This document shows, piece by piece, positions 6,113-53,544 of a DNA stretch of 53,832 nt. The position numbers were made by a program, and so were the translations under genes. The notes below the pieces were generated by a model that was not told the origin of the DNA, did not search any database, and worked only from the letters and a program-made list of their open reading frames with translations. The DNA is from an uncultured Candidatus Sumerlaeota bacterium. GTDB lineage: Bacteria; CAYMEV01. Each line of letters starts with the position of its first letter. Position 1 is the first letter of the stretch. The stretch lies in contig CAYMEV010000023.1 of NCBI GenBank assembly GCA_964389675.1, positions 1 to 53,832 on the forward strand. Direction: 5' to 3'.

Positions 6113-9100
6113 TCAGCCTAATTCTTCTATCATTTTCATGAATTTTGCTTTTGGTGTCGCTTTTATAAGCTTCTGGCAAAGGCTTCTTGCCTTTTTCCGA
6201 TACTGCTCTTCTCCTGTCAATTTCCAGAGCTCGTGGTTGAGACAGGCTTCCTGCTCATCAGAGACAGGCATGTCTTTAAGCATTGAAGACAGAGCTTCAG
6301 CATTTTTCTCTATCTTGTTTCTTAGGAGTGATGCTGCAAACTGCATATCCTTAATATCTAATTTTTCTGCAAGTATTGCAGATTCATTTATGGCTGTCAT
6401 GGCCTCATCATTCTTTTTAAGGCTGAACAGAATATTTGCTTTGCCTGCCAGCTGCTGGCAAAGCTCATATTTTATATCGAGATCCCGTGATATTTCTATT
6501 GCTCTTTCATAGAATTCCAGCGCAGAATCATACTGCCCCCGTTCACAGGCCAAAGATCCAATATTGGCAAGCGCTATGCTTATCCCCCTTCTATCGCCCA
6601 GTTCTTCAAAGAGTGTTTTCTGCCTTGTAAAATACTTCATGGCCTTTTCATGATCGCCATAATCTGCATAGATATTTCCAATATTATTCAGAGCTATGCT
6701 GATGCCCCATTTATCACCCATGCCCTCACATATTTTAAGATCTTTTTCAAAGCACTCCATTGCCTCTCTGAATTCTCCAAGCAAATAGTGCACAGTCCCG
6801 ATATTGCTGACAGCTGAGCTGATTCCGCTCTTATCTCCCAGTTCTTCAGAGATTTCCATTTCTTCCTGAAAGCACTCCATTGCCTTTTTAAATTCATTCC
6901 TTTCTTTATATACAACACCCATATTTCCGACAGTTATGCTCCTGCCCCTTTTATCACCAAGCTCTTTGCATATAAGAAGCTTTTTATTATAATATTCAAT
7001 TGCTTTTTTATAATCTCCCAAATAAACACAGGCATTACCAATATTTACATATGCATTGCCAATTCCCCATATATCCCCGAGTTCCTCCGATATTTCAAGC
7101 TCTTTTTCATAACACTCTATTGCCTTTTTGAAACTGCCCCTTGCCCTGTAAACGATCCCCATATTTGTCATTGCAAGGCTGATGCCTTTTTTATCGCCAA
7201 ACCTTTCACTTAAGGCCAGCAGTTCTTCATAACAATCCATGGCCTTTTCATATCTCCCCTGATAATAATGGATTATCCCAATATTCCCTATTGCTTTTGC
7301 CAGGCCTTTTTCATCCTTGATCTTCATGCATATTTCATAATCCTTTTGGAAGTATCTGATAGCCTTTTTATAATCACCCTGCTGTTCGTATATACTGCCA
7401 ATGTTCCAGAAAGCATTTTTTAGCCCTTTCAGGTATCCTTCTCTTTTTGCAATACTCTCTGCCCTTTTCAATACAATGCGTGCATCGGGATAATTTCCGC
7501 TGCATTGAAGAAGGTTCCCCAGTTTATTCAGGGTATCGACTATAATTTCAGGATATTGCAGTTCTTCTGATATCCTGAGCGAATTCTCAAATATTTCCTT
7601 TGCCCTGTTCCATTTGCCTGTCAGCTGCAGGACATCCGCCTGCCTGATAAGGGCCCGGGCTGTTTTTTCCTTCAGGTCTCTGCCATCAGCCTTATTAAGG
7701 AAGTACATCAGCCTGTCATAAAAATCCAGAGCCTGGGAATTCCTGTAATTTTCACGAGATGAATCTCCGGCTTTTTCAAGATATTCTATGGCCTTTTCCA
7801 AGTTTTCTGCTTTTTCATAATGATCTGCAAGCTCCTCATAATGCGGAAGCAGGTTGTCCTGATAAAGCTCTTCAATAATGCTTCCTGCATAATTATGGAG
7901 GCTCCTCAGGGTATCCTTGAGCTGTATTTCATAGGCAGCATCCCTGATCAGAGCATGTTTGAATATATAGCTCAGCTCTGACATGCTGTCCCAGATATTT
8001 TCCCGGCAGCCCATCTCCATCTGTTCGCTAAATTCTCTTTCCCCTGAAATGATCCCGGCAAGCTGAAGAAGATTTCCCAGCACAAGCAATGCAAATTCCC
8101 TTCCAAGGACAGAGGCTGTCTTTATCGTTTCCTTAAGTTCCGAAGACAGCCTGTCAATCCTTGCAATAATAATTCGGTTTATTCCTGAAGGGATCTCATA
8201 AGCCTGTTTGATGAGCCTGAAATTATCATCAAAGAGCCTGTTTTCCCTTAAATATAGAGTTATCTGCTCTGCATAGAAGGGATTGCCCCGGCTTTTCTCC
8301 CAAATAAAATCCTCTGTTTTTTCAGGAAGGCAATGTTCTGAAATATCAAGCCGGTCAATAATGAGTTTTCTTAGCATTCTTCTGCCGAAGGGCATTAATT
8401 TGAGCCTTTCTGACCTTATGCTGTCTGTCCTGGGCAGTAAGAAGCTTCCTCCCTTATCATCAGGCCTGCAGAGGGCGAGAATGATAAAGGGATATTTTTC
8501 CACATTGCGTGTCAGATGCTCTATCATCTCTATACTGTCCCTGTCGATCCAGTGTGCATCATCAAGGATCAATAACGTCGGGTTTGCCATGCTCCGGGCT
8601 TTAATGAACTGCTTTACAGCATTCAGTGTATTTTCAAAACGCTCTTTGGCATCAAGATGGCTGTAAAGGCTGTTTTCCCAGAAATATCCAAGCAGGGCTC
8701 CGATGACAGATATTTTCCGTGCAAGCTCACCGGCTGTATCTTTATCTTTTATGCTTCTGACCATTTCCATATACCTGATTTCAAAGCAGGCCTTTTTTTG
8801 CTCATGTTCAAGATTGTCATCCTGCGCAAAATACTCCTTGAGCATATGGATAAAAGGATTAAGGGATTTTCTCAAAATCTCATCGCAGGGCATGAAAAGG
8901 ACATTTGCTTTCCTTTCCTCAATAATGGCTGAAAAACTGGAAATAAGCCTTGATTTGCCAATACCCGCTATACCTTCTATATAGATAATTCCGCCGAAAT
9001 TGCCTTCAAATACGGGATATATCAATTCTAGAAGACGTTTTATCTCATCCTGCCTTCCAATGAACCTTCCTGAATATGATCTTTTATATTTCTCGGAAGC

Positions 9101-10279
9101 CTTTGATTCCAGAAGGCTTAATTCTATCTTCCTGCCGAATCCCTTTATCTGTTTTTTTCCAAGGCTCCTGAACCTGTAATCAGATGAAAGGTGTCTTCTG
9201 ATACCCGGCCCGGCGACTATCCCCTCCCAGGGAGCCTGCATCATCAGCCTTGATGCCAGGTTAACCCGGCTTCCCAGGGCTGTATATTCGCTCCGGAGCT
9301 TTGAGCCCACAAAACCTGCATAGGCTGTTCCGGCAGCAAGGCCTGCCCTGAAAACAAAGCCCTTTATGGGCTTAAGGCTTAAAGCAAAATCACAGGCTCT
9401 CTCATACAGCTTTTCCTTGCCTACTGGTGCGCCGAAGAGAACCAGAATAACACCGCCCTTGTCACCAAAATCAACGCGGTTGAAATATCCTCCGTAATCA
9501 TGGCATTGCTTTATGACTGCCTTAATAGCATCATGAAAATTGTATTCTTCCCTGAAGTTAATAAAACAGCTGATAACCTCCCTGAACTCCCCTGTATCTT
9601 TCATCCTGGTTACAGAAGGGGGTACGAAGCTTTCCTGCAGGGATACAGGTATCCTTTTTTCTTTTTTTCCAGCATAAGGCTTTATTTTTACCAGCTCAGG
9701 GGTAATAATAGACCAGTTTTTCCCTGTTCTTTTATGATCAGAGATATAAGGCATCCTGGATTTAAAGTGATGGTCCGCAACTACCTGCATCGTATCGGCC
9801 TTATGCTCTGAGAGTGCACAGCCGTCTATTGCCTCTCCCCTGAAATACCAGGTATTCTGGATATCACCCGGAATGATCATGTAATTCACCTTTCCCCAGG
9901 ACAGTCCGATCTTTACGGACAGGCTGAAATCCCCTGCCTTTGTGGTTATCCTGCCCCGGTCCTTAAACAGGGCATTTATTGCAAAGGCAGCATTTAGAGT
10001 GTATTCAGATTTCCTTCTGTGGAATATGGCAGTGAAGGCATCGCCTGCAAATGATGATATAAATCCCCCCTCAGAGTAGACCGCCTGAATGCATGGTGTA
10101 AATATCTGATTGATGATCCTCGAGAGTATCTCTGAACCTTCTTTGCCTGATTCCATCAGCCTTTCCGTCATAGGAGTAAAGCCTGATATATCAATGAACA
10201 TTGTAAATGCGGTCAGATTTCCTGATAATCTCCCCTTACGGAGCATATCAGCTATGAATAGGGGAACAAACCTGCTCAT
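6113..10279 (-). CDS. Tandem class III nucleotidyl cyclase - STAND/AAA ATPase - TPR protein (sAC/ADCY10-like), paralogue 1
   Basis: FIDISGFT, FAGDA, GDKG, EYTALGSRVNLASR; Walker A GIAGIGKS, Walker B LILDDAHW, GNPFY, FKHALIRD; 11 40-aa TPR units. Confidence 0.9.
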   Translation of the reverse strand: MSRFVPLFIADMLRKGRLSGNLTAFTMFIDISGFTPMTERLMESGKEGSEILSRIINQIFTPCIQAVYSEGGFISSFAGDAFTAIFHRRKSEYTLNAAFAINALFKDRGRITTKAGDFSLSVKIGLSWGKVNYMIIPGDIQNTWYFRGEAIDGCALSEHKADTMQVVADHHFKSRMPYISDHKRTGKNWSIITPELVKIKPYAGKKEKRIPVSLQESFVPPSVTRMKDTGEFREVISCFINFREEYNFHDAIKAVIKQCHDYGGYFNRVDFGDKGGVILVLFGAPVGKEKLYERACDFALSLKPIKGFVFRAGLAAGTAYAGFVGSKLRSEYTALGSRVNLASRLMMQAPWEGIVAGPGIRRHLSSDYRFRSLGKKQIKGFGRKIELSLLESKASEKYKRSYSGRFIGRQDEIKRLLELIYPVFEGNFGGIIYIEGIAGIGKSRLISSFSAIIEERKANVLFMPCDEILRKSLNPFIHMLKEYFAQDDNLEHEQKKACFEIRYMEMVRSIKDKDTAGELARKISVIGALLGYFWENSLYSHLDAKERFENTLNAVKQFIKARSMANPTLLILDDAHWIDRDSIEMIEHLTRNVEKYPFIILALCRPDDKGGSFLLPRTDSIRSERLKLMPFGRRMLRKLIIDRLDISEHCLPEKTEDFIWEKSRGNPFYAEQITLYLRENRLFDDNFRLIKQAYEIPSGINRIIIARIDRLSSELKETIKTASVLGREFALLVLGNLLQLAGIISGEREFSEQMEMGCRENIWDSMSELSYIFKHALIRDAAYEIQLKDTLRSLHNYAGSIIEELYQDNLLPHYEELADHYEKAENLEKAIEYLEKAGDSSRENYRNSQALDFYDRLMYFLNKADGRDLKEKTARALIRQADVLQLTGKWNRAKEIFENSLRISEELQYPEIIVDTLNKLGNLLQCSGNYPDARIVLKRAESIAKREGYLKGLKNAFWNIGSIYEQQGDYKKAIRYFQKDYEICMKIKDEKGLAKAIGNIGIIHYYQGRYEKAMDCYEELLALSERFGDKKGISLAMTNMGIVYRARGSFKKAIECYEKELEISEELGDIWGIGNAYVNIGNACVYLGDYKKAIEYYNKKLLICKELGDKRGRSITVGNMGVVYKERNEFKKAMECFQEEMEISEELGDKSGISSAVSNIGTVHYLLGEFREAMECFEKDLKICEGMGDKWGISIALNNIGNIYADYGDHEKAMKYFTRQKTLFEELGDRRGISIALANIGSLACERGQYDSALEFYERAIEISRDLDIKYELCQQLAGKANILFSLKKNDEAMTAINESAILAEKLDIKDMQFAASLLRNKIEKNAEALSSMLKDMPVSDEQEACLNHELWKLTGEEQYRKKARSLCQKLIKATPKAKFMKMIEELG
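6344..7663 (-). repeat. Eleven tandem 120-nt (40-aa) TPR-like repeats in paralogue 1
   Basis: Gap-free 40-aa periodicity, consensus A..NIG.IY...G.Y.KA.E.F.K.L.I.EELGDK.G; DNA-level echoes such as cactccattgcct recur 120 nt apart. Confidence 0.85.
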
Positions 10280-12311: not shown

Positions 12312-12506
12312 TTTTTTATTATTGCATATTCTCGTGAACAGTCAATATTGATTTTTTTTGAAATGGGCATTAAAGGAGGCATTCAATTTGAATTTTACGG
12401 TCAATCTCAAATCCTTCTGATTTATACCCTTTTTTATTTTTTACTTAAATCATTTATATTGATTATTTTGCTGAATTCTGTAAGAATTTCATATACCGCT
12501 GGAAAA

Positions 12507-15500
12507 ATGAAGAACTTAATACCAGAATTCATATTACACAGGCTCAGGGAAAATACCCTGAAGGGTGAAATTGACAGCTATACAGTGTTTATAGACATGT
12601 CAGGGTTTACAAGGATGAGCCAGGACCTTATGAAATATGAGAAAGAAGGCTCAGAGCTTCTCTGCTCTATTATAAACAGGGTCTTTACTGAAGCTATAGA
12701 TTCGGTTCATAATAATGGCGGGTTCATTACCACATTTGCAGGTGATGCTTTCACAGCAGTCTTTGATAAAAGAGAGGTTCCCTTGCCCTGTGTCCTTAAA
12801 GCATGCACAGAGATCAGTAAAAAAATAACCGGCCTTGGAGATATCGAGACTGAAATGGGCAATTTCCCTGTATCTGTAAAAATTGGAATCTCTGAAGGGA
12901 TTGTCAAATGGGGAATCCTGAAAACAGATGCAAATTACAGCTTCTACTTCAGGGGAGAAGGTATTGACAATGCAGCATTTGCTGAACACCAGGCCCGCAG
13001 GAATGACATCATCCTGGACAAAAGGATCCTGAAGAACAGCAGAGAGATCGAAGATCATCTGCATTATTTGCCCAAAAGAGGGAACTATGCCAGGCTTATC
13101 AGGTTTGATCACACCGGATGCCCGAAGAGGCCTGCTGAAAAAGCCGATTCAGGCATGATAAGGCATTTCGTACCTGACTCAGTAAGCAAATTGAAGGCAA
13201 AGGGAGAGTTCAGGGAGCTGCTGAGCATGTTTCTGACTTTCAGGGAGAATGAGGGCTTTTTAGAGGGGATCGCAAAAGCTATAAATCTTTCAAAAATATA
13301 CGGTGCTTACCTGAAGCAGATAGATTTCGGCGACAAGGGAGGCACACTTCTTTTCTTTTTCGGAGCGCCTGTCGCAATGGAAAAGCCATTTGACAGGGCT
13401 GCAGAGTTTTCTCTTGAGTGCCTCAGGATAAATGAGCTTTCCTGCAGGATAGCCCTTACCTATGGCAGGGCTTTTGCAGGATTCATCGGAAGCACTGAAA
13501 GGTGTGAATACGGTGCTTTGGGCAATGTTGTCAATAAGAGTGCCAGGATAAACATGGTAACGGACTGGAACTCCATTTCAGCAGATAAAATAGTATACAG
13601 CAGGATCAAGGACAGGTTTATTGCAGAACTGACGGACAGCAGGGATTTTAAGGGATTTTACGGCAAGCTGGACTATTACAGGATTATCAGGAAGATGGCA
13701 AAACGTAAAAAGGTCCAGTACAGGGGCAAAATCTTCGCAAGGGATAAAGAACTATCACTGCTTTCAGACAGGATTAAGGCACTGAACAGCGGAAAATTCG
13801 GCGGCCTGATATATATAAACGGCGACCCTGGCATAGGCAAGACACGCCTTATCTGGGAGCTTAAGAAAAACCTGGATGAAAAAGAGCTCTACTGGGTATA
13901 TATGCCATGCGACCCTATCCTGAAAAACAGCTTCAATCCTGTTAAATATTTCCTGAGAAATTTCTTTGACTGCAGTGATGAGCTGGATAATGAGATAAAT
14001 AAGAGATCATTCGAATCAAAAATTGATCTTATAATGGGATCGATCGATGATGAGTACCTGAAAAAGGAACTGGACAGAACAAAGCCCCTGACAGGAAGCC
14101 TTGCAGGAATTTCCTTCGAGGGCTCTCTTTTCAGCAGTATGAGCTCAAAGACCAGGCATGAGAACACGATCTACTCCCTGAAAAACCTGATAAAAGCCTT
14201 GAGCATGATAAAGCCTGTGGTGATCGAGCTGGATGACGGCCAGTGGATCGATCCCGAAACACATGATTTTTTGGGCAGGCTGGTAGAAAATTTGGAGGAT
14301 CATCCCATCCTAATACTGAGTGAATGCAGGTACCAGGACAATGGCGAGAGGTTCAGCTTTAACTTTAAGGGCATAGGGTCATGCACAAACAGCATAGACC
14401 TTGAATATTTTGACAAAGAAACTATAAGAAGCTTTATTCTCGACTTTTACAGCATAGAAGAAGTAACTGACGAGACAGTGGAATATATATTTAAATATTC
14501 TTCAGGCAATCCATTCTTTCTGGAGCAGATACTATCCTTCATACAGGAGAACAGCCTCATTGATAAGAAAGGCAGTATCAGCAGGGAAAAGATCAGGATA
14601 CCATCTGACATAAACTCTCTTATCATTGCAAGGATCGACAGGCTTTCGGAGGACTTAAAGGAGCTCATAAAGACAGCATCTGTGCTTGGCATTGAATTCC
14701 CCGTAAAGATCCTGCAGAGCATGCTTTCCGGAGAAAGAATAGACGATAAGATAAAAAAGGTGGAGGATGAGCAGATATGGATACCATTTACCAGGATCAG
14801 CTACCTGTTCAGGCATATGCTCATAAGGGAATCAGTATATCAGATCCAGCTCAGGGAGACCCTTAGAAAGCTTCACAGCCTTGCTGCAAAAACCATTACA
14901 GAGATCTATGCTGACGATCTTGAACCCCAGTACCCTGCCCTTGCAAACCATTATGAAAAAGCAGAGAATACAGAAGAGGCCGTAAAATATATCAGGCTTT
15001 CCATAAAAAGCTTCAAAAAGCAGTACCAGAATAAAAAAGCCCTTGAGTATTATGACAGGCTTTTAAGATATATTGAGGATCCGGAAGAGAAAATGAATAT
15101 TAAATTATCCAGAATGACACTCCTTAATGAGACTGGCAGGCTCAATGATTCGCTCTCCCTGGGGCTTGAAGTCCTGGAAGATGCACAGGAGAGGCATTTT
15201 GAAGCCATCGTACCGCGGGCCTGTTTAAACCTCGGCATAGTGAGCAACCTTCTTTTTAAGCTGGATGAAGCTGTTGGATATTTCATGCGTATTCTGGAAC
15301 CTTCTTCAAAATGCGAGGATAAAAATCTGATTGCAAGCGCTTATCAGTGCCTGGGAAAGAATTATCACCACAGGGGTTATGATGATCAAGCCCTTGTGTA
15401 TTTTCAGAAAGCGCTTGATATCTATAAAGAAATAAATGACAGTATAGGCATAGCAAACTGCTATAACGATATAGCCATATTCTGCGGAAGGCAGGCAGGG

Positions 15501-16340
15501 CTTGACAGGGTTCTGGATTATCTTTTCAGGGCATATGATATTTTCAAAAAAGAGGGTGATATTAATTTTCAGCTCATACCCCTTTCAAACATAGGCCTTA
15601 CATACTTTGAGGTGTACCTTGACCTCGAGAGATCCAATTCCTATTATGAAAAAGCTGTTGATATAGCAGAAAGGACAGGCAATTACAGAACACTGCAGTA
15701 CCTCTATCTGAACCTGAGCTCTAATTACTGCGCCCTGCATGATTACGGGAAAGCCTATGATTTTATCATGAAAGCCATACACTACTGTCAGGAGATGAAT
15801 GACAGAGACAATCTTTCGCAGTGTTATATCGGCCTGGGTGAGATATATTATCAGCAGAAGGAATATGACAGGTCCCTGGAATATATAGACAGGGCTATCA
15901 GCATCACAAAAACACATAAGAATATGAACCTTCGTTTAATTGATCAGAAATTCGCAAAGATCATTCCGTTGATCGATCTGAAACGATATCAGGAAGCATA
16001 TTCAGAATTAAGTGATATTAAAAGGCTGTACAGGCAGTTTGATATAAAATCCTTAAAAGAATATATCAGGATATATGAATTTAAGATAAAGCACCTGATG
16101 AACTTCAAAACTGCACTGAAGAATATGAAGGCCCTTCTGAAGGACAATCTCTGCAGTCATAGTGAAGCCCTTGTATTATATATTCTCTGGCAGTTCACCG
16201 GGGATGAAAAATACCGCACTCAGGCCCTTGGAAAATACAGGGAGCTGGTTGATGGCCAGGCTGATGATTATAAAAGCTTTCAGTATACTGAAAGAGTAAA
16301 AGAATTAGAGGACAGCGCATCAGCAGGATCTCATCATTGA
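12507..16340 (+). CDS. Cyclase - STAND ATPase - TPR protein, paralogue 2
   Basis: Start moved to MKNLIPEF by homology with the paralogues; FIDMSGFT, FAGDA, GDKG, VNKSAR; GDPGIGKT; IELDDGQW; GNPFF; about 8 TPR units. Confidence 0.88.
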   Translation: MKNLIPEFILHRLRENTLKGEIDSYTVFIDMSGFTRMSQDLMKYEKEGSELLCSIINRVFTEAIDSVHNNGGFITTFAGDAFTAVFDKREVPLPCVLKACTEISKKITGLGDIETEMGNFPVSVKIGISEGIVKWGILKTDANYSFYFRGEGIDNAAFAEHQARRNDIILDKRILKNSREIEDHLHYLPKRGNYARLIRFDHTGCPKRPAEKADSGMIRHFVPDSVSKLKAKGEFRELLSMFLTFRENEGFLEGIAKAINLSKIYGAYLKQIDFGDKGGTLLFFFGAPVAMEKPFDRAAEFSLECLRINELSCRIALTYGRAFAGFIGSTERCEYGALGNVVNKSARINMVTDWNSISADKIVYSRIKDRFIAELTDSRDFKGFYGKLDYYRIIRKMAKRKKVQYRGKIFARDKELSLLSDRIKALNSGKFGGLIYINGDPGIGKTRLIWELKKNLDEKELYWVYMPCDPILKNSFNPVKYFLRNFFDCSDELDNEINKRSFESKIDLIMGSIDDEYLKKELDRTKPLTGSLAGISFEGSLFSSMSSKTRHENTIYSLKNLIKALSMIKPVVIELDDGQWIDPETHDFLGRLVENLEDHPILILSECRYQDNGERFSFNFKGIGSCTNSIDLEYFDKETIRSFILDFYSIEEVTDETVEYIFKYSSGNPFFLEQILSFIQENSLIDKKGSISREKIRIPSDINSLIIARIDRLSEDLKELIKTASVLGIEFPVKILQSMLSGERIDDKIKKVEDEQIWIPFTRISYLFRHMLIRESVYQIQLRETLRKLHSLAAKTITEIYADDLEPQYPALANHYEKAENTEEAVKYIRLSIKSFKKQYQNKKALEYYDRLLRYIEDPEEKMNIKLSRMTLLNETGRLNDSLSLGLEVLEDAQERHFEAIVPRACLNLGIVSNLLFKLDEAVGYFMRILEPSSKCEDKNLIASAYQCLGKNYHHRGYDDQALVYFQKALDIYKEINDSIGIANCYNDIAIFCGRQAGLDRVLDYLFRAYDIFKKEGDINFQLIPLSNIGLTYFEVYLDLERSNSYYEKAVDIAERTGNYRTLQYLYLNLSSNYCALHDYGKAYDFIMKAIHYCQEMNDRDNLSQCYIGLGEIYYQQKEYDRSLEYIDRAISITKTHKNMNLRLIDQKFAKIIPLIDLKRYQEAYSELSDIKRLYRQFDIKSLKEYIRIYEFKIKHLMNFKTALKNMKALLKDNLCSHSEALVLYILWQFTGDEKYRTQALGKYRELVDGQADDYKSFQYTERVKELEDSASAGSHH

Positions 16341-16344
16341 GGCA

Positions 16345-16384: not shown

Positions 16385-16389
16385 ATATA

Positions 16390-39800: not shown

Positions 39801-40886
39801 ATAGGTTTTTGAAACCCTGTCTTTCACCGAGCTGTCTGTTTCCGCCATTCCCCACCGGGCCAGTGACATTATCCTTGCTGACATATTCACAACATTCCCA
39901 AGTGCCGTGTACTCGCTCCTCATCTCCGAACCTACAAAGCCTGCAAAGGCAATACCGCCAGCAATGCCTGCCCTGTATTCAAAGCCGGGAATATCCCCAA
40001 GGCTGAGCGCAAAGTCGCAGGCCCTTTCATATAGTTTTTCCCTCCCCTCAGGGGCTCCGAAAAGTACCAGGATGGTGCCTCCCTTATCCCCGAATCCTGC
40101 CCTGTTGAGATACCCTCCGTAAGTACTGCAGTTATTCAGAACCCTTTCTATGCCGTCCCTGTAATTTCCCTTCTCAGAGAAATTAATAAAGCAGGATACG
40201 ATCTCCCTGAACTCTCCTTTCTCCTTTAGTTCCAGCACTGAAGCCGGCACAAAAGCTGACTCATCCCCCGGTGTTTCTTTACTGCCTGTACCTCCAGGCT
40301 TTATCTTCCCCTCTCTTATCAGGAAATGATCAGGGCCTGCTGATCTCTTTTCAATATCCGCCCTGTCAGCAAAGCTCCTGTCTGCTATGATCTGCATCTT
40401 TCGGGCAAGGTGCTCTGACTCTGCACATCCATCGACAGCCTCTCCCCTTAAATAATACAAATTTCTGTGTTCAGTCTCAATTATTGAAAACTCCACCCTG
40501 CCATATGAAAGCCCTATTTTGGCAGAAAGGTCAAATCTCCCGAACCTTGTGTCAATAGTACCCTTTTCCTTAAACAGCCTGCTTATCATAAAAACAGCCC
40601 TTAAGACATTATCCGCGCCAGCATTCTCAAAAACGGCCGTAAATGCATCTCCCGCAAAGGATGCTACAAACCCCCCGTTATCATATACGGCCCTGATGGA
40701 AGGGGTAAAAACAGAATTAATGATCCCGGACAGCACTTCAGCACCCTCTCTGCCGTGTGCCATAAGCTCCTGGGTCATATCAGTGAAACCTGATATGTCG
40801 ATAAACCCGGTAAAAGCCTCAAAAATGCCGCCAGGCCTTTTATTTCTGTAATTATCCAGAATGAAACCGGGTACTAATCTGCTCAT
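36879..40886 (-). CDS. Cyclase - STAND ATPase - TPR protein, paralogue 3
   Basis: FIDISGFT, FAGDA, GDKG, EYTALGNVVNMSAR; GEAGIGKS; LIIEDAHW; GNPFF; FKHALIRD; 10 TPR units. Confidence 0.9.
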   Translation of the reverse strand: MSRLVPGFILDNYRNKRPGGIFEAFTGFIDISGFTDMTQELMAHGREGAEVLSGIINSVFTPSIRAVYDNGGFVASFAGDAFTAVFENAGADNVLRAVFMISRLFKEKGTIDTRFGRFDLSAKIGLSYGRVEFSIIETEHRNLYYLRGEAVDGCAESEHLARKMQIIADRSFADRADIEKRSAGPDHFLIREGKIKPGGTGSKETPGDESAFVPASVLELKEKGEFREIVSCFINFSEKGNYRDGIERVLNNCSTYGGYLNRAGFGDKGGTILVLFGAPEGREKLYERACDFALSLGDIPGFEYRAGIAGGIAFAGFVGSEMRSEYTALGNVVNMSARIMSLARWGMAETDSSVKDRVSKTYEFLKAGYKKFKGIRKRTEVYELKGKHEDRRIEYAGRFIGRKAETEELKALTGSIFQGRFGGIIYIDGEAGIGKSRFIDNFRKNAVGRAYYYLQCDEILKKPFNPFISFLSEYFNRGRTASAIENFEAGYAELIRMTSDQGIKSELVRTGSFIRALAGLGQDGFYLQLSAEKRYKNTLYALKNLIKALSLIEPLILIIEDAHWIDSDSIEALREMARNVERYPFVIIAVCRPGDDGTLFKLDLGEEGVRTERLKIGKFGRADIKELLSDMLRSDNIPEDTLDFIEKRSEGNPFFAEQIAMYLAERGLFTEDYRITEKGEDVPSGISQIITARIDRLSAKVRDAVKAASVLGREFAVRVLKKLLIKADIAKNDTESSWQVERGYNEQIWDNITEIRYIFKHALIRDTVYELQLKASLRRLHSLAGNIIEDIYSNNIEEHYEELADHFDKSGIRDKAVEYLKKAGDKAEANYHNTKALDYYDRLLGYLEDDGKNDQYIDILLRKEKVFRLTGRLDDAEKVSAESLEISRSIGSEHLMAESAGSLGYLLKEKGKLKEARKFLEFSLELSEKAGYMEGVSKSLIQIGSILSRSGEFDGAMKYLERAVSVSENAGDRNSISIASGEIGIVHSYKGNYDKALECYKKMLALCKELGNKGRESCAYGNIGGVLYLQGDIKKAMENFEKSLAICIQTGDRSGAAYAYGNMGITYRKMGEKDKALEYYRKQLEISEEIGHQAGVSLALGSIINIFIDEGRYNDAEKYCRKNLALCKRTNDRIGLVYSLIKLGDIHREQGYLDRAMKCFEKSLSFCEEAGAKRETADVLGQMGFTYHYAGEHEKALGFYNRALEILRPLNAGIALCKLLFEKAVLLIEMNDIQEALDVTEEAYKMACRLDNYEMNIKCTILKHRIEKNEEALTDMLKKSIDEEELSAYISYELWRINGREYYRNRAMEIYRRLYDKKPAYEYRARIKELKGKIR
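37122..38321 (-). repeat. Ten tandem 120-nt (40-aa) TPR-like repeats in paralogue 3
   Basis: Gap-free 40-aa periodicity from YIDILL to DNYEM. Confidence 0.8.
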
Positions 40887-42318: not shown

Positions 42319-42364
42319 ATTATTCTCCAAATATTTATACGATAATATCTTATATTATATTATA

Positions 42365-43704: not shown

Positions 43705-43729
43705 TAAAAATATAGGAAGGGAACGCAAA

Positions 43730-45229: not shown

Positions 45230-45233
45230 ACCG

Positions 45234-46616: not shown

Positions 46617-46642
46617 AAATAATGGATATGGAAGGTGCAAAT

Positions 46643-48121: not shown

Positions 48122-48136
48122 CAAAAAAAAATAAAT

Positions 48137-49249: not shown

Positions 49250-49262
49250 TGGAAGGCTTATT

Positions 49263-49766: not shown

Positions 49767-49776
49767 AGCTCCGGCG

Positions 49777-52700
49777 CTACTTTAGATAAGAAAGCAGGAC
49801 ATCATACAGCGGGCCTGAGGAATCAAGCCTGAGCCTCTGGTACTTTTCCACAAGGGCAGGCTTTTCCCCACCTGCAATATCTTCATATCTGCGGAATACG
49901 AAGAACTCTGCTATCGCCCGGATGTTTGCATCAGTCTCTATGCATGACAAAAGGCCTCTGCCCTTTTCCAGGCCAGATAGCCCGCCTCCTCTATCCAGAT
50001 TATAAAAGATAATTTTAAGCAGATCAAGCTCTTCTATCAGTGCAGGGTCATAGTTCTTTTCCCTCATGAAGGCAATGGTTGTGTTCAAAAACCTTGAACC
50101 CTTCATGTACATGCCCTTCAAACCGCACAGCAGGGTCCTGTATATCAGGCACTCATACACATAATCATTTATTTCGGCCTTCACTGACATTTTCTGGTAT
50201 TTTTTCAGGTATTTTTCTGCACTGGCATAATCCCTTTTTATTAAGGATAATATGCCTGTCATAAAGCCTGAATAGCAGATCCCCTCAACATAGTTCATCT
50301 CTATGGCTTCTTTTTCTGCCAGGATGGACAGTTCCATTGCTTTGTCGTATTTTCCCAGTTTATAATAGATCTCTATCTTGGTAAACACCAGCTTGATCTC
50401 AGCATACCTGAAATAAAACTCATTCAGCAGTTTTTGAGCTTTATCTATCTGACTCAGGGCTTTCTTAAAATCCTTTTCAGCTGTCATATAATAGCGCGCT
50501 GACAATTCCAGAAACTGTATCAAAGCATACTTTTTACCTGACTTTTTAGCAATGGTATAATACCTGTCCAGGTGCTTCTTCGCTTTATCAAATTCTCCCC
50601 TGTAAAAATATATCACAGAGAGGTTTGCATCATCCGGTCTGATCTTTTTGAGCTCTGCAGACATATTAAAACAGGCCAGGGCTTCATCCACTTCATGGCG
50701 GAATAAAAGATTCACTGCCCTGGAATGGTAAATAATACTGAGCATTTTTTTATCCTGTTTTTTTGATGCTATTTCCAATGCTTTTTCAATGAGATTCTCA
50801 CCCTTCTCGACCTCATTTGTAATATTATAGAAATATGCGGTATTTATAAGGATATCACAAAGTATCTCCAGGTTCTCAGCTTTCTCCATGATACTGATAA
50901 AATCCCTGTATAAAAGTATGCCTTCCTTAAAAAGGCCGATAAACCTCATTAACTGCATATTCTCATTGATCGCCATAAGGATTTCTGTTTCATCAGCCCT
51001 GATAAATATAAGAAGCTCCAGAACCTTTTTATAGCAATTCAATGCTTCCCTGGCGCTTATGCCATTCAGGTAATATTCTGATGCCTTTTTGTAATATTGT
51101 ATGGCATCCCTGTATTTTTCGCTGATCTCCAGGTGCCTGGCTATATCATAATAATATGCAGGATTGTCCTTATAGGTACTGATATAGGAATCTGCCGCGA
51201 TCCCATGCAGTCTTTTTAGCTCTCTTTTTAGCTGGATCTGGTATACCGTATCCCTTATAAGAGAATTTGAGAACATGTATATCAAAAGGGATGCAGGCTT
51301 CCAGATATTCTTGCTTGTACCCTGTTTCAGCACTTTCTTATCCCCTATTTTCTGCCTGGCTATCATGGAAAGAAGAATGCCTGCCTCAAACCTGTATCCC
51401 AGCACACTTGCATTCCTGACGCTTTTTTTCAAAGCCCTTGACAGTTTATCTATCTGTGAAAGGATTATCGACTGAATGGAACCCGGTATCTCCAGATTTC
51501 CTTTTTTAAGCTTATTATCGGCATCAAGCAGTTCATTCTCCTTTATATATGAGGCCAGGGCCAGCAGGAACAAGGGGTTGCCCTCTGACCTGCTGTATAT
51601 ATGGTCAATGGCCTCTTCAGAGCATTCCGATGAGATAATATTCTCTATCAGCTTCCTTGAACTCCGCCTGTTCAGGCCCTTTAGCCTGATCTCAACTATT
51701 CTGTTCCTGAGGTATTTATCATTTATGCTGCCCCTTCCTGAGAAAATTAAAGCAAATCTGCAATCTCCGGCTGAACCCAGAAAGAAGTTTAAGAACTGAA
51801 GCGTATCAGCATCCAGCAGATGACTATTATCAATGCACAGGACAAACGGATCACCCCGGGCCTGTGATACAAGAAATACCTTAAGGCTGTTTAGTATGGA
51901 TTCATGGCGGATATTAGCATCCAGGCCGAGTATATCATCCCTCTGTATATCTATATCCAGCAGGAAGGCTATAAAGGGCTTTGACCTTAAAATCTCATCC
52001 CTTAATTCAATATTGCTGTCTGCATTAATAAGTTCATCATATATCCTTAAGAAACTCTGCTTCTTTTCTTTTTCATCCTGCCCCGGCATTTGCCTGAAAT
52101 GCTCCTCAAGAAGCGATATTAGAGGATGGAACGGAAGCCTGTCAAGGCTGCTGCATACCATCTCTACCCATTTAATACCTCTGTCAAGGCTCTCCTTCAA
52201 AGCACTCAGCAATCTGCTCTTGCCTGCCCCGGTACCCCCTGTAATCATGCTTATCTTCTTCAGCTTCCCATCCAGGGTCCTCATTACATTTGATCTCAGT
52301 CTCCTTAATTCAGCTTCCCTTCCTACAAAAACACTGATGTGATGATCCTCGGTATCAATGCCTTTTTCTGACAGCCTGTAAACCCCGATCATTTTCTTAA
52401 ACCCCTTTACCTTCTCCTCAGCAACGAATTTAGATGCAAAATGCCTCCTTATCCTTTTTGATGTTTCTTCATCCATATATACCCTGTCAGAAGGGCACAT
52501 CACCATAAGCCTTGAAGCAAGATTTACCTTGGTACCAAGGCAGGAGAAGTCTGATCGGGCCTTTGAACCGTAAAACCCTGCAAACACGACCCCGGTAGTC
52601 ATCCCGCATCCAATCCTGCTTTTATTGAATACAGCCTGCCTGATGCTCTTAATGAAATTAACAGCCCGCATTTCATTATCCTCATAGGATACTGGGCTTC

Positions 52701-53544
52701 CAAAAAATACCAGTATGCAGTTTCCTTTATCACCTGAAATAAATCTTGGCGTGCTCCCTCCATAGTATTCCTGGTATTTCACTATTGCTTTCAGCATATC
52801 AATGCTGGCCTGAGTAAAATCAAAAGATATAAATACAGTCGTAATGTCCCTGAATTCCCCCTTCGGAAAATTAATGACCTCATCCGGATAGAAACCTGAG
52901 AGGCATTTTCTGGATAAGGGCCTGACCCTGTACTTATCTTTGCTTACGCTGAATGGCTTGATGCCCAGGATCCTTAATACACCTGATGACCTTCTGAGAG
53001 CAGAATACTCTATAAACCCTTTCAATCTTTTCAGCATACCCTGATCAGCAAGGATATTACCCCTTCCTGCATGCTTTGCCAGCCTGTAGACCTTCTCCAG
53101 CGCACTCCCAAAGAAATAATAATGGTAGAACCTGTCATGCCTGAATATATGCCATCCGAGATCCCCCTCTGCAATGCATATCTTTGCATTGATATCTGTA
53201 AGTCTCTGACTGCTGCTGATCATCTCCTTCATTTCAGCCCCGGCTCTAAGCATTCTTAAAGCAGTACTCTCATTTTCCTTCTCTTCAAACACGGCGGTAA
53301 ATGAATCCCCTTCAAACCCTGCAATAGAACCGCCATATGAATATACGATATCAACCAGCGGGTCATATATCTCCTCAAGCAGGTCTGAAAGGATCTCAGC
53401 CCCCTCGCTCCCCCTGGTCATAAGCTCTTCAGTGATCCTGGTAAAACCGCTTATATCCAGAAACAGCACGGATGCTTCAAGGCTTCCTGAGTATTTACCA
53501 TGATTAAGCCTGTCAATTATAAATTTTGGCAGAATATTCTTCAT
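49777..53544 (-). CDS. Cyclase - STAND ATPase - TPR protein, paralogue 4 (most divergent)
   Basis: Start MKNILPKF; FLDISGFT, FEGDS, GDKG, DFSCLGTKVNLASR; GGTGAGKS; LCIDNSHL; GNPLF; degenerate TPRs. Confidence 0.88.
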   Translation of the reverse strand: MKNILPKFIIDRLNHGKYSGSLEASVLFLDISGFTRITEELMTRGSEGAEILSDLLEEIYDPLVDIVYSYGGSIAGFEGDSFTAVFEEKENESTALRMLRAGAEMKEMISSSQRLTDINAKICIAEGDLGWHIFRHDRFYHYYFFGSALEKVYRLAKHAGRGNILADQGMLKRLKGFIEYSALRRSSGVLRILGIKPFSVSKDKYRVRPLSRKCLSGFYPDEVINFPKGEFRDITTVFISFDFTQASIDMLKAIVKYQEYYGGSTPRFISGDKGNCILVFFGSPVSYEDNEMRAVNFIKSIRQAVFNKSRIGCGMTTGVVFAGFYGSKARSDFSCLGTKVNLASRLMVMCPSDRVYMDEETSKRIRRHFASKFVAEEKVKGFKKMIGVYRLSEKGIDTEDHHISVFVGREAELRRLRSNVMRTLDGKLKKISMITGGTGAGKSRLLSALKESLDRGIKWVEMVCSSLDRLPFHPLISLLEEHFRQMPGQDEKEKKQSFLRIYDELINADSNIELRDEILRSKPFIAFLLDIDIQRDDILGLDANIRHESILNSLKVFLVSQARGDPFVLCIDNSHLLDADTLQFLNFFLGSAGDCRFALIFSGRGSINDKYLRNRIVEIRLKGLNRRSSRKLIENIISSECSEEAIDHIYSRSEGNPLFLLALASYIKENELLDADNKLKKGNLEIPGSIQSIILSQIDKLSRALKKSVRNASVLGYRFEAGILLSMIARQKIGDKKVLKQGTSKNIWKPASLLIYMFSNSLIRDTVYQIQLKRELKRLHGIAADSYISTYKDNPAYYYDIARHLEISEKYRDAIQYYKKASEYYLNGISAREALNCYKKVLELLIFIRADETEILMAINENMQLMRFIGLFKEGILLYRDFISIMEKAENLEILCDILINTAYFYNITNEVEKGENLIEKALEIASKKQDKKMLSIIYHSRAVNLLFRHEVDEALACFNMSAELKKIRPDDANLSVIYFYRGEFDKAKKHLDRYYTIAKKSGKKYALIQFLELSARYYMTAEKDFKKALSQIDKAQKLLNEFYFRYAEIKLVFTKIEIYYKLGKYDKAMELSILAEKEAIEMNYVEGICYSGFMTGILSLIKRDYASAEKYLKKYQKMSVKAEINDYVYECLIYRTLLCGLKGMYMKGSRFLNTTIAFMREKNYDPALIEELDLLKIIFYNLDRGGGLSGLEKGRGLLSCIETDANIRAIAEFFVFRRYEDIAGGEKPALVEKYQRLRLDSSGPLYDVLLSYLK

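What the first reader, a model, noticed from the sequence alone, without database searches (positions are those of the whole stretch)
6113..53544. Four dispersed cyclase-STAND-TPR paralogues in 48 kb: candidate expanded family of NLR-like cyclic-nucleotide receptors
Seen: 6113-10279, 12507-16340, 36879-40886 and 49777-53544 share one architecture (C1+C2 class III cyclase, P-loop STAND ATPase with GxP motif and winged helix, TPR array) and fill about 30% of the window. All keep both metal Asp in C1, the N-x3-R in C2 and a Walker A. They are non-adjacent, lie in both orientations and sit among unrelated genes. The cyclase and ATPase halves are conserved while the TPR sensors differ strongly. Known: this layout matches animal soluble adenylyl cyclase (ADCY10), and STAND-TPR sensors with N-terminal effectors underlie Avs/NLR immunity, while class III cyclases make immune signals in Pycsar. 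Inference: a lineage-specific receptor repertoire in which each TPR array senses a different ligand (possibly phage proteins) and triggers cNMP synthesis for an effector encoded elsewhere. No cNMP-binding effector is visible in this window.
Basis: partly seen in the sequence, partly recalled or inferred. Interest (0 to 1): 0.8.

Follow-up and report, generated by a model that had tools for sequence, protein, structure and literature searches.

The report
Expanded bacterial soluble-adenylyl-cyclase-like sensor family
The four giant genes are real copies of a bacterial counterpart of animal "soluble" adenylyl cyclase (a two-part cyclase joined to an ATP-driven switch and a repeat sensor); the design is already known, but this small genome carries 26 copies, and they look like ordinary cell-signalling sensors rather than virus-defence receptors.

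Summary
All four ORFs share one layout: tandem C1-C2 class III cyclase, AAA_16/MalT-type STAND ATPase, TPR array. They fill 29% of the window.

The 3.57-Mb genome has 26 intact full-length copies, about 3% of its DNA. It also has 2 single-cyclase and at least 23 Ser/Thr-kinase STAND-TPR proteins.

The cyclase half matches human sAC/ADCY10 by sequence (E 1e-23). It matches by fold too: the top 24 PDB hits are sAC, TM 0.77-0.84.

A defence role is not supported:
- 13 of the 19 copies fetched from the only congener pair one-to-one with copies here.
- Orthologous TPR arrays keep their length and about 47% identity.
- No Avs/NLR defence model matches.
- No partner gene recurs.
- The five cNMP-binding proteins are regulatory types.

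The family is widespread in uncultured bacteria, and this scan met it before on other genomes.

Verdict: a new, unusually expanded member of a known kind. It is most likely a set of ligand-gated cAMP sensors.

The parts
6113..10279 (-). Paralogue 1 (1388 aa): C1-C2 cyclase, AAA_16 STAND ATPase, long very regular TPR array, conserved C-terminal cap
   Evidence: Its place in the tree is unresolved, in a fork with C19_41920 and one congener copy.
12507..16340 (+). Paralogue 2 (1277 aa from ATG 12507; the longest ORF starts at TTG 12348): same architecture. The base-specifying pair is Gln/Gly.
   Evidence: It has a one-to-one orthologue in the congener with support 100.
36879..40886 (-). Paralogue 3 (1335 aa), used as the reference copy. 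The whole gene includes the stop codon.
   Evidence: It has a one-to-one orthologue in the congener, 64% identical over C2+STAND.
40287..40886 (-). Paralogue 3, C1 cyclase domain (residues 1-200). It carries the two metal-binding Asp (D30, D80) and lacks the Asn/Arg pair.
   Evidence: Aligns to ADCY10 residues 29-220. Residue counts. AF2 model with pLDDT 94.
39711..40244 (-). Paralogue 3, C2 cyclase domain (residues 215-392). It carries Asn334/Arg338 and the base-contact positions R262/T327, and lacks the first metal Asp.
   Evidence: Aligns to ADCY10 residues 320-467. Residue counts. Fold match to sAC.
38277..39695 (-). Paralogue 3, STAND module (residues 398-870): P-loop NBD (Walker A GEAGIGKS, Walker B IIEDAH), helical domain with GNP motif, winged helix.
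   Evidence: Pfam AAA_16. AF2 model with pLDDT 92.8. Foldseek hits to the 6MFV STAND-TPR protein, MalT, Avs3 and Apaf-1.
36882..38276 (-). Paralogue 3, TPR array and conserved C-terminal cap (residues 871-1335).
   Evidence: Pfam TPR_12 and TPR_MalT. PDB sequence hits to consensus TPR proteins and LGN/Pins.
49777..53544 (-). Paralogue 4 (1255 aa from ATG 53544; the longest ORF starts at GTG 53559). It is the most divergent copy, with Walker B D-N and weak TPR matches.
   Evidence: It has a one-to-one orthologue in the congener with support 100. There that orthologue lies directly beside the orthologue of paralogue 3.

Best explanation
Each gene encodes a soluble, one-polypeptide signalling receptor of the bacterial 'sAC-like' type.

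Shown:
- The N-terminal C1 and C2 domains fold onto each other as a pseudo-heterodimer with a single active site.
- C1 gives the two metal-binding Asp. C2 gives the Asn/Arg that stabilise the transition state, plus the base-contact residues.
- A MalT-type STAND ATPase (NBD, helical domain, winged helix) follows.
- Then comes a TPR array that differs between paralogues but is kept between orthologues.

Inferred:
- The TPR array binds a paralogue-specific cytoplasmic ligand, a protein, peptide or metabolite.
- Binding lets the STAND switch exchange ADP for ATP and change its state or oligomerise.
- This relieves autoinhibition of the cyclase, which is already complete within one chain, and cNMP (most likely cAMP) is made.

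The genome holds 26 such inputs, and about as many kinase-headed STAND-TPR sisters. The messenger is read by only five cNMP-binding proteins: a Crp-type regulator, a histidine kinase, a PilB-like secretion/pilus ATPase, a tandem-CNB protein and a wHTH-CNB protein. This is a many-inputs, few-outputs physiological signalling network, not a cell-suicide defence.
For: Architecture.

Likeness to ADCY10:
- Sequence alignment covers both C1 and C2, in order, at E 1e-23.
- The AF2 model has pLDDT 94. Its 24 best PDB matches are all human sAC (TMq 0.77-0.84, E 1e-30 to 1e-26). tmAC soluble domains come next.

One active site per chain:
- Both C1 Asp 26/26, Arg 26/26, Asn 24/26.
- C2 first Asp 0/26. C1 Asn 1/26 and C1 Arg 3/26.

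STAND module:
- Walker A 26/26 and Walker B 25/26.
- STAND fold, with 6MFV, MalT, Avs3 and Apaf-1 as matches.

Old, stable repertoire:
- Species labels are fully interleaved on the tree. 13 sister pairs form among the 19 congener copies fetched, 12 of them starred.
- Orthologue identity is C1 57, C2 62, STAND 58 and TPR 47% (medians of 13 pairs). TPR length is kept in 10/13 pairs. Paralogue TPR identity is 28% (median of 325 pairs).
- Housekeeping orthologues are 60, 72 and 87-90% identical.

Signalling context:
- Of 30 other large STAND-related ORFs examined, 24 have a kinase head (23 also matching AAA_16), 2 a single cyclase and 1 a PP2C phosphatase. One has no head and 2 have unidentified heads.
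- AAA_16 gives 58 matches in the genome and the response-regulator receiver domain also 58.
- The five CNB proteins have regulatory architectures.

Autoinhibition precedent: full-length mammalian sAC is about ten-fold less active than its C1-C2 fragment, owing to a segment after C2 (passage of PMC11006738).
Against: - No biochemical data exist for any copy. Cyclase activity, product and ligand are all inferred.
- The sAC Lys at the adenine-contact position is Arg in 19/26 copies, His in 2, Gln in 1, Gly in 1 and Lys in only 3. The product may not be cAMP in every copy.
- 13 of the 26 copies here have no sister among the 19 congener copies fetched. This could mean turnover. It could also reflect the congener assembly, which is 91% complete and in 270 contigs.
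- TPR arrays do evolve somewhat faster than the enzyme parts (47 against 57-62%).
- The STAND fold matches Avs3 and plant NLRs as well as MalT, so fold alone does not separate signalling from immunity.
- Only two genomes of the phylum are held, so conservation is judged on a single species pair.
Confidence: 0.6

Rival explanations
1. NLR/Avs-like antiviral receptors. Each TPR array recognises a phage protein. The STAND oligomerises, and the cyclase makes an alarm cNMP that activates an effector encoded elsewhere.
For: - STAND plus repeat sensor plus N-terminal enzymatic head is the Avs/NLR layout. Avs3 is the second-best structural match (E 1.3e-9).
- A 2026 preprint proposes an 'immune clade' of cNMP cyclases fused to NACHT and AP-ATPase STANDs (passages of 10.64898/2026.08.12.744502).
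- There are many paralogues with different TPRs.
- 13/26 copies have no sister among the congener copies fetched.
- A PADLOC candidate gene (PDC-S01, E 4.7e-71) lies next to paralogue 3.
- C1 gives weak PycC hits (E 1e-8 to 1e-9).
Against: - No Avs/NLR-type STAND defence model matches any of the four.
- The STAND here is the AAA_16/MalT type, not NACHT or AP-ATPase.
- Most duplications predate the species split, and orthologous TPRs are kept in length and sequence.
- No neighbour recurs within three genes of the 26 copies or in 80 loci from other phyla.
- The genome's five CNB proteins carry no TIR, pore or nuclease part.
- Sister STAND proteins carry kinase or phosphatase heads.
- Window neighbours are housekeeping genes.
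Confidence: 0.12
2. Bicarbonate/CO2/pH sensors, as in animal sAC and the Chloroflexus sAC-like enzyme. The cyclase core itself is the sensor, and the STAND-TPR part is only a scaffold.
For: - The closest sequence and structure match is sAC.
- A bacterial sAC-like cyclase from Chloroflexus was reported to be bicarbonate-stimulated (Kobayashi et al. 2004, as cited in a passage of PMC11006738).
- The sAC-type Thr at the second base-contact position is kept in 15/26 copies.
Against: - The two side chains that hold bicarbonate in human sAC (Lys95 and Arg176; these residue roles are recalled, not from a call) align with no Lys (0/26) and no Arg (0/26) here.
- In a wider set of 79 family members they align with 0/79 Lys and 0/79 Arg.
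- One ubiquitous signal does not explain 26 paralogues with 26 different, individually conserved TPR arrays.
Confidence: 0.07
3. The copies are active cyclases but make different messengers. The base-contact pair differs between paralogues, so the family may encode several cNMP channels (cAMP, cGMP or others). Some copies may be nucleotide-binding pseudo-enzymes.
For: - The base-contact pairs in the 26 copies are R/T 12, R/D 5, R/S 2, K/D 2, H/T 2, K/T 1, G/G 1 and Q/G 1.
- In 79 wider family members they are K/T 35, R/T 17 and E/A 9. The last recalls the Glu of guanylyl cyclases (that rule is recalled knowledge).
- Two copies have Ser in place of the catalytic Asn.
Against: - The metal Asp and the catalytic Arg are invariant (26/26), so loss of catalysis is unlikely.
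- All five receptors found are ordinary PF00027 domains, whose specificity cannot be read from these data.
- No rule is known to me for Arg at this position.
Confidence: 0.2

Closest known systems
Soluble adenylyl cyclase, full-length isoform (sAC, ADCY10) of animals
   Same: - Tandem C1-C2 in one chain with one active site. The sequence match covers both domains (E 1e-23).
- Fold TM 0.77-0.84; the 24 best PDB hits are all sAC.
- Thr at the second base-contact position in 15/26 copies.
- A long C-terminal extension with a P-loop NTPase and TPRs. That full-length sAC has such a part is recalled, not from a call.
   Different: - About 23% identity.
- Bicarbonate-site Lys and Arg are absent (0/26).
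- The adenine-contact Lys is mostly Arg (19/26).
- 26 paralogues per genome, against a single animal gene.
- Homology of the STAND-TPR halves could not be tested, because no full-length ADCY10 sequence is reachable with these tools.
Bacterial sAC-like cyclases of Chloroflexus aurantiacus (Kobayashi, Buck and Levin 2004)
   Same: - A bacterial protein family with two cyclase domains and a sAC-like C-terminal extension. These details are recalled from the abstract. The paper is not held. Its bicarbonate result is quoted in PMC11006738.
- Chloroflexota MAGs are among the carriers of close relatives.
   Different: - Three genes were reported there (recalled), against 26 here.
- The sAC bicarbonate side chains are not conserved in this family as sampled.
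- No enzyme data exist for any copy here.
MalT-clade STAND signalling proteins: MalT, AfsR, PknK, and the mycobacterial cyclase-ATPase-TPR-LuxR proteins (Rv0386 type)
   Same: - AAA_16 P-loop, helical and winged-helix domains, and a TPR sensor.
- MalT is a structural match (TMq 0.51, TMt 0.61). AfsR TPRs match by sequence.
- The same genome holds at least 23 PknK-like kinase versions.
   Different: - No DNA-binding domain.
- The head is a tandem pseudo-heterodimeric cyclase, not a single cyclase domain that must dimerise. That Rv0386 has a single domain is recalled.
Avs (antiviral STAND) and other bacterial NLR-like defence proteins
   Same: Tripartite head-STAND-repeat layout. Avs3 is a structural match at E 1.3e-9.
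   Different: - No Avs/NLR-type STAND PADLOC model matches.
- The head is a signalling enzyme, not a nuclease or protease.
- Copies are conserved one-to-one between species.
- No defence-island setting in the window.
Pycsar/Pucsar cyclases and the proposed 'immune clade 1' cyclase-STAND fusions (bioRxiv 10.64898/2026.08.12.744502, passages only)
   Same: Class III cyclase fold. Weak PycC HMM hits on C1 (E 1e-8 to 1e-9). A cyclase fused to a STAND NTPase.
   Different: - Pycsar and Pucsar cyclases are single-domain homodimers with an adjacent CNB-TIR or CNB-TM effector. Here no such neighbour or effector exists.
- The preprint names NACHT and AP-ATPase fusions, not MalT-type ones.
- Its Table S1 and tree were not visible to me, so I could not place these cyclases on it.

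Membership tests
sAC (ADCY10)-type tandem class III cyclase | Two cyclase homology domains in one chain that pack as a C1-C2 pseudo-heterodimer | tested here: met
   phmmer aligns residues 13-197 to ADCY10 29-220 and residues 248-389 to ADCY10 320-467. The AF2 model has pLDDT 94 and pTM 0.90. The top 24 Foldseek PDB hits are human sAC, TMq 0.77-0.84.
sAC (ADCY10)-type tandem class III cyclase | Complementary degeneracy: metal Asp pair only in C1, Asn/Arg only in C2 | tested here: met
   Both C1 Asp 26/26, C2 Arg 26/26, C2 Asn 24/26. C2 first Asp 0/26, C1 Asn 1/26, C1 Arg 3/26.
sAC (ADCY10)-type tandem class III cyclase | Lys/Thr base-contact pair (human Lys334/Thr405; the residue roles are recalled) | tested here: not met
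   K/T in 1/26 copies and R/T in 12/26. None of the four window copies is K/T (R/T, R/T, Q/G, R/S). In the wider family K/T is 35/79.
sAC (ADCY10)-type tandem class III cyclase | Bicarbonate site side chains (human Lys95, Arg176; the roles are recalled) | tested here: not met
   Lys 0/26 and Arg 0/26 at the aligned columns. 0/79 and 0/79 in the wider family.
sAC (ADCY10)-type tandem class III cyclase | C-terminal extension homologous to that of full-length sAC | not testable with these tools
   A STAND plus TPR extension is present here. The PDB holds only sAC residues 1-469, and no full-length ADCY10 sequence could be fetched.
sAC (ADCY10)-type tandem class III cyclase | Makes 3',5'-cAMP | not testable with these tools
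   Needs an enzyme assay or cya- complementation.
STAND NTPase, MalT clade | P-loop NBD with Walker A and Walker B | tested here: met
   Walker A GxGK[ST] 26/26. Walker B [DE]D 25/26; window copy 4 has D-N. Pfam AAA_16 in 4/4.
STAND NTPase, MalT clade | NBD, helical domain with GxP motif, and winged helix, followed by a repeat sensor | tested here: met
   GNP is invariant in the four. AF2 model of residues 390-900 has pLDDT 92.8. Foldseek matches: 6MFV STAND-TPR protein E 2e-11, MalT 8BOB TMq 0.51/TMt 0.61, Apaf-1, CED-4. TPR_MalT and TPR_12 match by Pfam.
Avs / bacterial NLR-like antiviral STAND | Matches a defence-system STAND model | tested here: not met
   PADLOC gives only TPR, weak PycC and one other weak model (C3a156, E 2.2e-5, on copy 1) for the four proteins. 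No Avs or NLR-type model matches.
Avs / bacterial NLR-like antiviral STAND | Cell-killing or growth-arresting effector head, or a dedicated effector gene alongside | tested here: not met
   The head is a cyclase. No neighbour family recurs within three genes of the 26 copies or in 80 related loci. The CNB proteins are regulatory types.
Avs / bacterial NLR-like antiviral STAND | Patchy, fast-turnover distribution between close relatives | tested here: inconclusive
   13 one-to-one sister pairs form among 19 congener copies, and the species labels are interleaved. But 13/26 copies here have no sister, only one other species exists in the held set, and its assembly is fragmented.
Avs / bacterial NLR-like antiviral STAND | Activated by a phage protein and protects against phage | not testable with these tools
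   Needs phage challenge experiments.
Pycsar | Stand-alone cyclase with an adjacent cNMP-binding TIR or membrane effector | tested here: not met
   The cyclase is fused to STAND-TPR. Two CNB genes lie near a paralogue: a PilB-like ATPase on C31 and a wHTH-CNB protein on C1. Neither has a TIR or TM part. The first adjacency is not kept in the congener.

The most novel reading that the evidence does not exclude
In this rarely sampled phylum, about 55 STAND-TPR proteins form the main intracellular sensing system. Of these, 26 have sAC-like cyclase heads and at least 23 kinase heads. They equal the receiver domains in number and take roughly 6% of the genome.

This would be an NLR-like repertoire of cytoplasmic ligand receptors wired to cAMP and phosphorylation instead of to cell death. 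Different base-contact residues might give several cNMP channels. A minority of fast-turnover copies may watch for invaders.

The set would be a natural panel of 26 variants for working out what the still unexplained STAND-TPR half of animal soluble adenylyl cyclase does.
Probability: 0.2. Interest if true: 0.7.

Novelty: new member of a known kind. Interest (0 to 1): 0.42.

Why it matters
The protein design is not new. Bacterial sAC-like tandem cyclases with a STAND-TPR tail have been known since 2004 and are common in uncultured bacteria: 3165 clusters at E<=1e-30, with carriers in more than a dozen phyla.

What stands out is scale:
- 26 intact copies take 3% of a 3.6-Mb genome.
- That is about twice the 12-13 matches found in the three richest of the five other carrier genomes sampled.
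- They sit beside about as many kinase-headed sisters.
- Only five cNMP readers are encoded.

This makes the organism a compact natural case of many-to-few cAMP signalling. It also gives a set of paralogues with conserved catalytic cores but distinct, individually conserved sensors. Such a set could be used to learn how a STAND switch controls a cyclase that is already complete in one chain. As far as I recall, that question is still open for full-length mammalian sAC.

The work also warns against reading every STAND-repeat protein family as immune receptors.

Tried and rejected
- Sequence search of the STAND part (residues 395-900) against the PDB found nothing meaningful (2 hits, E about 0.01). 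A fold search was needed.
- A conserved partner gene was sought three ways.
  - Clustering the ORFs within three genes of the 26 copies gave only other family members.
  - Clustering the flanks of 80 related loci gave lineage-local neighbours: secreted carboxypeptidase-like and T9SS proteins, histidine kinases, and a sigma-54 activator.
  - The cyclase/CNB-PilB adjacency on C31 is not kept in the congener, where that gene sits beside PepX.
Orthologues are only about 47-62% identical in protein, so synonymous sites must be saturated.
- Literature searches:
  - 'soluble adenylyl cyclase' + STAND + TPR + bacterial gave 5 papers, none relevant.
  - ADCY10 + P-loop + tetratricopeptide gave 0.
  - 'soluble adenylyl cyclase' + 'signal transduction ATPases with' gave 0.
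  - 'adenylate cyclase' + AAA_16 + TPR gave 1, on mycobacterial LuxR proteins.
  - Rv0386 + Rv2488c + ATPase + TPR gave 2.
  - I found no paper in the held library on a large expansion of this family. Subscription journals are mostly not held.
- The Kobayashi 2004 paper is not held.
- This scan's index holds no look-alike of paralogue 3 by sequence.
- A bicarbonate-sensor reading was considered and set low (see rivals).
- No complex prediction, read mapping or protein-atlas search was run, because none would have changed the verdict.

Full report
1. THE OBSERVATION

The window has four very long ORFs at 6113-10279(-), 12348-16340(+), 36879-40886(-) and 49777-53559(-). These fit the N-terminal motif shared by all paralogues.

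Pfam finds the class III cyclase domain, AAA_16 and many TPR families in 4 of 4. The best NCBIfam match is a partial hit, far below cut-off, to the kinase/cyclase-AAA_16-TPR family TIGR03903.

The four genes take 15,777 of 53,832 bases (29.3%). They lie on both strands among a sulfatase, an amino-acid permease fused to an EIIA domain, PepX, MetRS and a carotenoid gene cluster.

Pairwise identity among the four is 30-53% in C1, 29-53% in C2, 28-49% in the STAND part and 23-33% in the TPR part. The TPR is the most divergent part, but the enzyme halves are far from identical.

2. A GENOME-WIDE FAMILY

The window is contig C23 of a 3.57-Mb assembly in 58 contigs, 93.8% complete.

- The first 800 residues of paralogue 3 find 31 places at E<=1e-5. 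Of these, 26 are covered from residue 1-4 to about 790-800, with no internal stops.
- A local phmmer over all ORFs gives the same 26 genes, 1260-1495 aa long.
- Together they are 106,449 bases, 3.0% of the genome.
- Two further proteins (C3:16719-20012 and C3:22802-26125) have a zinc ribbon, one cyclase domain, AAA_16 and TPRs.
- Of 30 other large STAND-related ORFs examined, 24 begin with a Ser/Thr kinase domain. Of those 24, 23 also match AAA_16 and one gave no AAA_16 hit in its first 600 residues.
- Of the remaining ORFs, one begins with a PP2C (SpoIIE) phosphatase, one has no head, and two have unidentified heads.
- AAA_16 matches 58 places, 54 of them in ORFs of 1097 aa or more. The response-regulator receiver domain also matches 58 places.
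- The copies are mildly clustered. There are two groups of four within 48 kb, matched or exceeded in 39 of 5000 random placements. There are nine pairs within 20 kb, matched or exceeded in 36 of 5000.

3. THE CYCLASE HALF

phmmer against PDB sequences aligns paralogue 3 residues 13-197 with human ADCY10 29-220, and residues 248-389 with ADCY10 320-467 (E 1e-23). Single-domain bacterial cyclases match C2 only.

An AF2 model of residues 1-400, built with 79 aligned sequences, has pLDDT 94 and pTM 0.90. Its 24 best Foldseek PDB matches are all human sAC (E 4.5e-30 to 5.4e-26, TMq 0.77-0.84, 22-24% identity). The AC9 soluble domains follow.

Columns equivalent to the sAC catalytic residues across the 26 copies:
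- Both metal Asp of C1 26/26, the C2 Arg 26/26, the C2 Asn 24/26 with two Ser.
- C2 has no Asp at the first metal position (0/26). C1 has Asn 1/26 and Arg 3/26 at the transition-state positions.

So each chain has one active site and one degenerate site, as in sAC and the membrane cyclases.

Two features differ from sAC. The residue roles below are recalled from the sAC structure papers, not from a call.
- The bicarbonate-holding Lys95 and Arg176 align with no Lys and no Arg in 26 copies. The same holds in 79 wider family members.
- The adenine-contact Lys334 is Arg in 19, Lys in 3, His in 2, Gln in 1 and Gly in 1. Thr405 is Thr in 15, Asp in 7, Ser in 2 and Gly in 2.
- In the wider family the sAC pair K/T is the commonest (35/79), then R/T (17) and E/A (9).

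The product is therefore probably cAMP, but this is not settled, and it may differ between copies.

4. THE STAND AND TPR HALVES

Walker A is intact in 26/26 and Walker B [DE]D in 25/26; window copy 4 has D-N. The GNP motif is invariant in the four.

A sequence search of residues 395-900 against the PDB found nothing useful. An AF2 model of residues 390-900 (pLDDT 92.8) matches these structures:
- the Pyrococcus STAND-TPR protein 6MFV (E 2e-11);
- Avs3 (E 1.3e-9);
- MalT (E 2.4e-9, TMq 0.51, TMt 0.61);
- Apaf-1, CED-4 and plant NLRs.

It is a true STAND module. The fold alone does not tell a regulator from an immune receptor.

The TPR arrays match consensus TPR proteins, LGN/Pins and AfsR. A C-terminal cap of about 60 residues is conserved in the cyclase copies and in relatives elsewhere. 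The kinase paralogues also match this end of the protein.

5. WHERE ELSE THE FAMILY OCCURS

The held set of GTDB species genomes has only two genomes in this phylum: G000 and a congener, G001. G001 has 22 matches at E<=1e-30, fragments included. Among 29 genomes of other families sampled, 3 have matches, all partial and lacking C1.

In the large protein collection, 1622 of the 7998 scored candidates reach E<=1e-10. Source names are of the kind 'TPR repeat protein/class 3 adenylate cyclase'. They come from MAGs labelled Delongbacteria, Cloacimonetes, Atribacteria, Saprospiraceae, Lewinellaceae and Dependentiae.

A profile of the C1-C2 part finds 3165 clusters (50% identity) at E<=1e-30. Of the best 150, 128 are 1100 aa or longer, with the match at their N-terminus.

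A scan of species genomes gave 373 confirmed loci among 513 pattern matches. The best 80 come from Cloacimonadota, Delongbacteria, Neomarinimicrobiota, Fermentibacteria, WOR-3, Mcinerneyibacteriota, Coatesbacteria, Caldithrix, Gemmatimonadota, Chloroflexota, Spirochaetia/Leptospiraceae, Desulfuromonas, Polyangium and Acidobacteriota.

Five carrier genomes searched whole gave these counts, with fragments and split genes included:
- a Cloacimonadota MAG: 13 matches;
- a Mcinerneyibacteriota MAG: 13 matches;
- a Spirochaetia MAG: 12 matches;
- a Delongbacteria MAG: 4 matches;
- Polyangium fumosum: 2 matches.

Multi-copy families therefore recur. The 28 matches in G000 at the same threshold are the most among the seven genomes counted.

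This scan has met the same architecture on other genomes several times, and classed it as known since 2004. These are AI notes, not independent evidence.

6. SIGNALLING OR DEFENCE

(a) Orthology. I fetched 19 of the 22 G001 matches; three short fragments were left out. A tree of the C2+STAND columns holds 45 rows. It was built with LG+G4, a quick search and SH-aLRT support only. It shows the two species fully interleaved: 18 label changes against a shuffled mean of 14.7. It has 13 G000-G001 sister pairs, 12 with support of 95 or more and one at 94. It has only one G000-only pair, the adjacent C11 genes.

Window copies 2, 3 and 4 each have a sister with support 100. Copy 1 sits in an unresolved fork. 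So most duplications predate the species split. Thirteen G000 copies have no sister among the rows used, which may reflect turnover or the fragmented 91%-complete G001 assembly.

(b) Rates. In the 13 pairs the median identity is C1 57, C2 62, STAND 58 and TPR 47%. TPR length agrees within 7 residues in 10 pairs. Two pairs are cut by contig ends and one truly differs (435 against 305 residues). Among 325 paralogue pairs the TPR median is 28%, range 19-38.

Housekeeping orthologues of the same two genomes are 60% (MetRS), 72% (PepX) and 87-90% identical (an aminotransferase). The sensors are thus specific to each paralogue and conserved between species. They evolve only moderately faster than the enzyme parts.

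(c) Defence models. PADLOC gives no Avs or NLR-type STAND model for the four proteins. It gives only TPR, weak PycC hits on C1 (E 1e-8 to 1e-9) and one other weak model, C3a156 (E 2.2e-5), on copy 1. A neighbour of copy 3, the AAA_14/DUF4143 ATPase at 41128-42330, matches the candidate family PDC-S01 (E 4.7e-71).

(d) Partners. No family other than STAND-TPR proteins themselves recurs within three genes of the 26 copies; ORFs under 100 aa were not scored. None recurs across phyla in the 80 related loci.

(e) Readers of the messenger. PF00027 matches six domains in five proteins:
- CNB-MshEN-T2SSE ATPase;
- CNB-HisKA-HATPase;
- a tandem-CNB protein;
- a Crp-type regulator;
- a 531-aa wHTH-CNB protein with no TIR or membrane segment.

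Two of these lie near a paralogue. The one adjacency I checked is not kept in G001.

(f) Output types. The other STAND-TPR proteins of the genome carry kinase, phosphatase or cyclase heads. None carries a nuclease, protease or TIR head.

A 2026 preprint proposes that cyclases fused to NACHT or AP-ATPase STANDs form a fast-evolving immune clade (passages only). Its tree and Table S1 were not visible to me, and the STAND here is the MalT/AAA_16 type. Kaur et al. 2020 list cNMP cyclases among effector domains of conflict systems (passages). That shows only that cyclases can serve in conflict systems, not that these do.

7. MECHANISM

Shown: one active site per chain, an intact STAND ATPase, a paralogue-specific conserved TPR array, and few cNMP readers.

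Inferred:
- The TPR binds a specific cytoplasmic ligand.
- The STAND exchanges ADP for ATP and changes state.
- The block on the cyclase is released.

Because the catalytic dimer is already formed within one chain, activation is more likely relief of autoinhibition than induced dimerisation. For mammalian sAC, a review passage reports ten-fold lower activity of the full-length form, owing to a segment after C2 (PMC11006738). For the two single-cyclase proteins, oligomerisation-driven dimerisation is the more natural model.

I put this signalling reading at 0.6 and the antiviral reading at 0.12. A pure bicarbonate-sensor reading gets 0.07.

8. VERDICT

This is a real feature of a known kind, bacterial sAC-like cyclase-STAND-TPR proteins, here expanded to 26 copies in a small genome of a two-species phylum. 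Its immune interpretation is not supported by the tests available.

The interest is moderate. It lies in the scale of the expansion, the Arg-for-Lys change at the base-contact site, and the use of the set as a natural panel for studying how a STAND switch controls a sAC-type cyclase.

Noticed in passing
G000 contigs C2, C4, C5, C7, C8, C13, C14, C15, C17, C28, C31, C36, C42 (loci L031-L050, L155-L163): 24 large proteins begin with a Ser/Thr kinase domain, and 23 of them also match AAA_16 and continue into TPRs. One PP2C(SpoIIE)-AAA_16 protein (C9:60696-64682) and one headless AAA_16-TPR protein (C5:126031-130215) are also present. AAA_16 matches equal receiver-domain matches in the genome (58 each).
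   Followed up: partly
window 43249-49766, and G001 contigs C84 and C89: A carotenoid cluster lies between paralogues 3 and 4. It holds DUF2141, two amine-oxidase-type desaturases, an aldehyde dehydrogenase, a GT2 glycosyltransferase and a CrtO acyltransferase, a staphyloxanthin-like set. In the congener the orthologues of paralogues 3 and 4 are directly adjacent, about 90 bp apart. The cluster there sits on another contig at 74% DNA identity.
   Followed up: partly
window 41128-42330 (-): An AAA_14/DUF4143 ATPase next to paralogue 3 matches the PADLOC candidate defence family PDC-S01 (E 4.7e-71). Its role here is unknown.
   Followed up: no
window 10428-12311 (-): An amino-acid permease is fused to a C-terminal PTS EIIA-2 domain. 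It lies between paralogues 1 and 2.
   Followed up: no
G000:C31:12305-14095 (L054:1378-3168): A cNMP-binding domain is fused to MshEN and a T2SSE/PilB-type ATPase, divergently next to paralogue C31_7576-12006. This suggests cNMP control of a pilus or secretion motor. The orthologue in G001 (74% identity) lies beside PepX instead.
   Followed up: partly
G000:C7:30553-34365 compared with window 6113-10279: The last 480 residues (TPR plus cap) of this kinase-STAND protein are 42% identical to those of window paralogue 1. That is more than any two cyclase paralogues share in that part (19-38%). It hints at shared or exchanged sensor modules, or at convergence on consensus TPRs.
   Followed up: no
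window 23020-25206 (+), 26455-28632 (-), 28890-30641 (-): Three large ORFs (728, 725 and 583 aa) have no Pfam family at E<=1e-5.
   Followed up: no
alignment A3 (75 database relatives plus the four window copies): Nine of 79 family members have Glu/Ala at the two base-contact positions. This recalls guanylyl cyclases and may mark cGMP-making members of the family.
   Followed up: no
window 35899-36423 (+): A DUF6036 nucleotidyltransferase-like ORF lies just downstream of paralogue 3. Such genes are often half of a toxin-antitoxin pair (recalled). No partner was sought.
   Followed up: no
G000:C3:16719-20012 and C3:22802-26125: Two zinc-ribbon, single-cyclase, AAA_16, TPR proteins lie just beside the tandem-cyclase paralogue C3_26987-31279. 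Their cyclase domains score far better against Pfam Guanylate_cyc (E 1e-25) than either half of the tandem type.
   Followed up: partly
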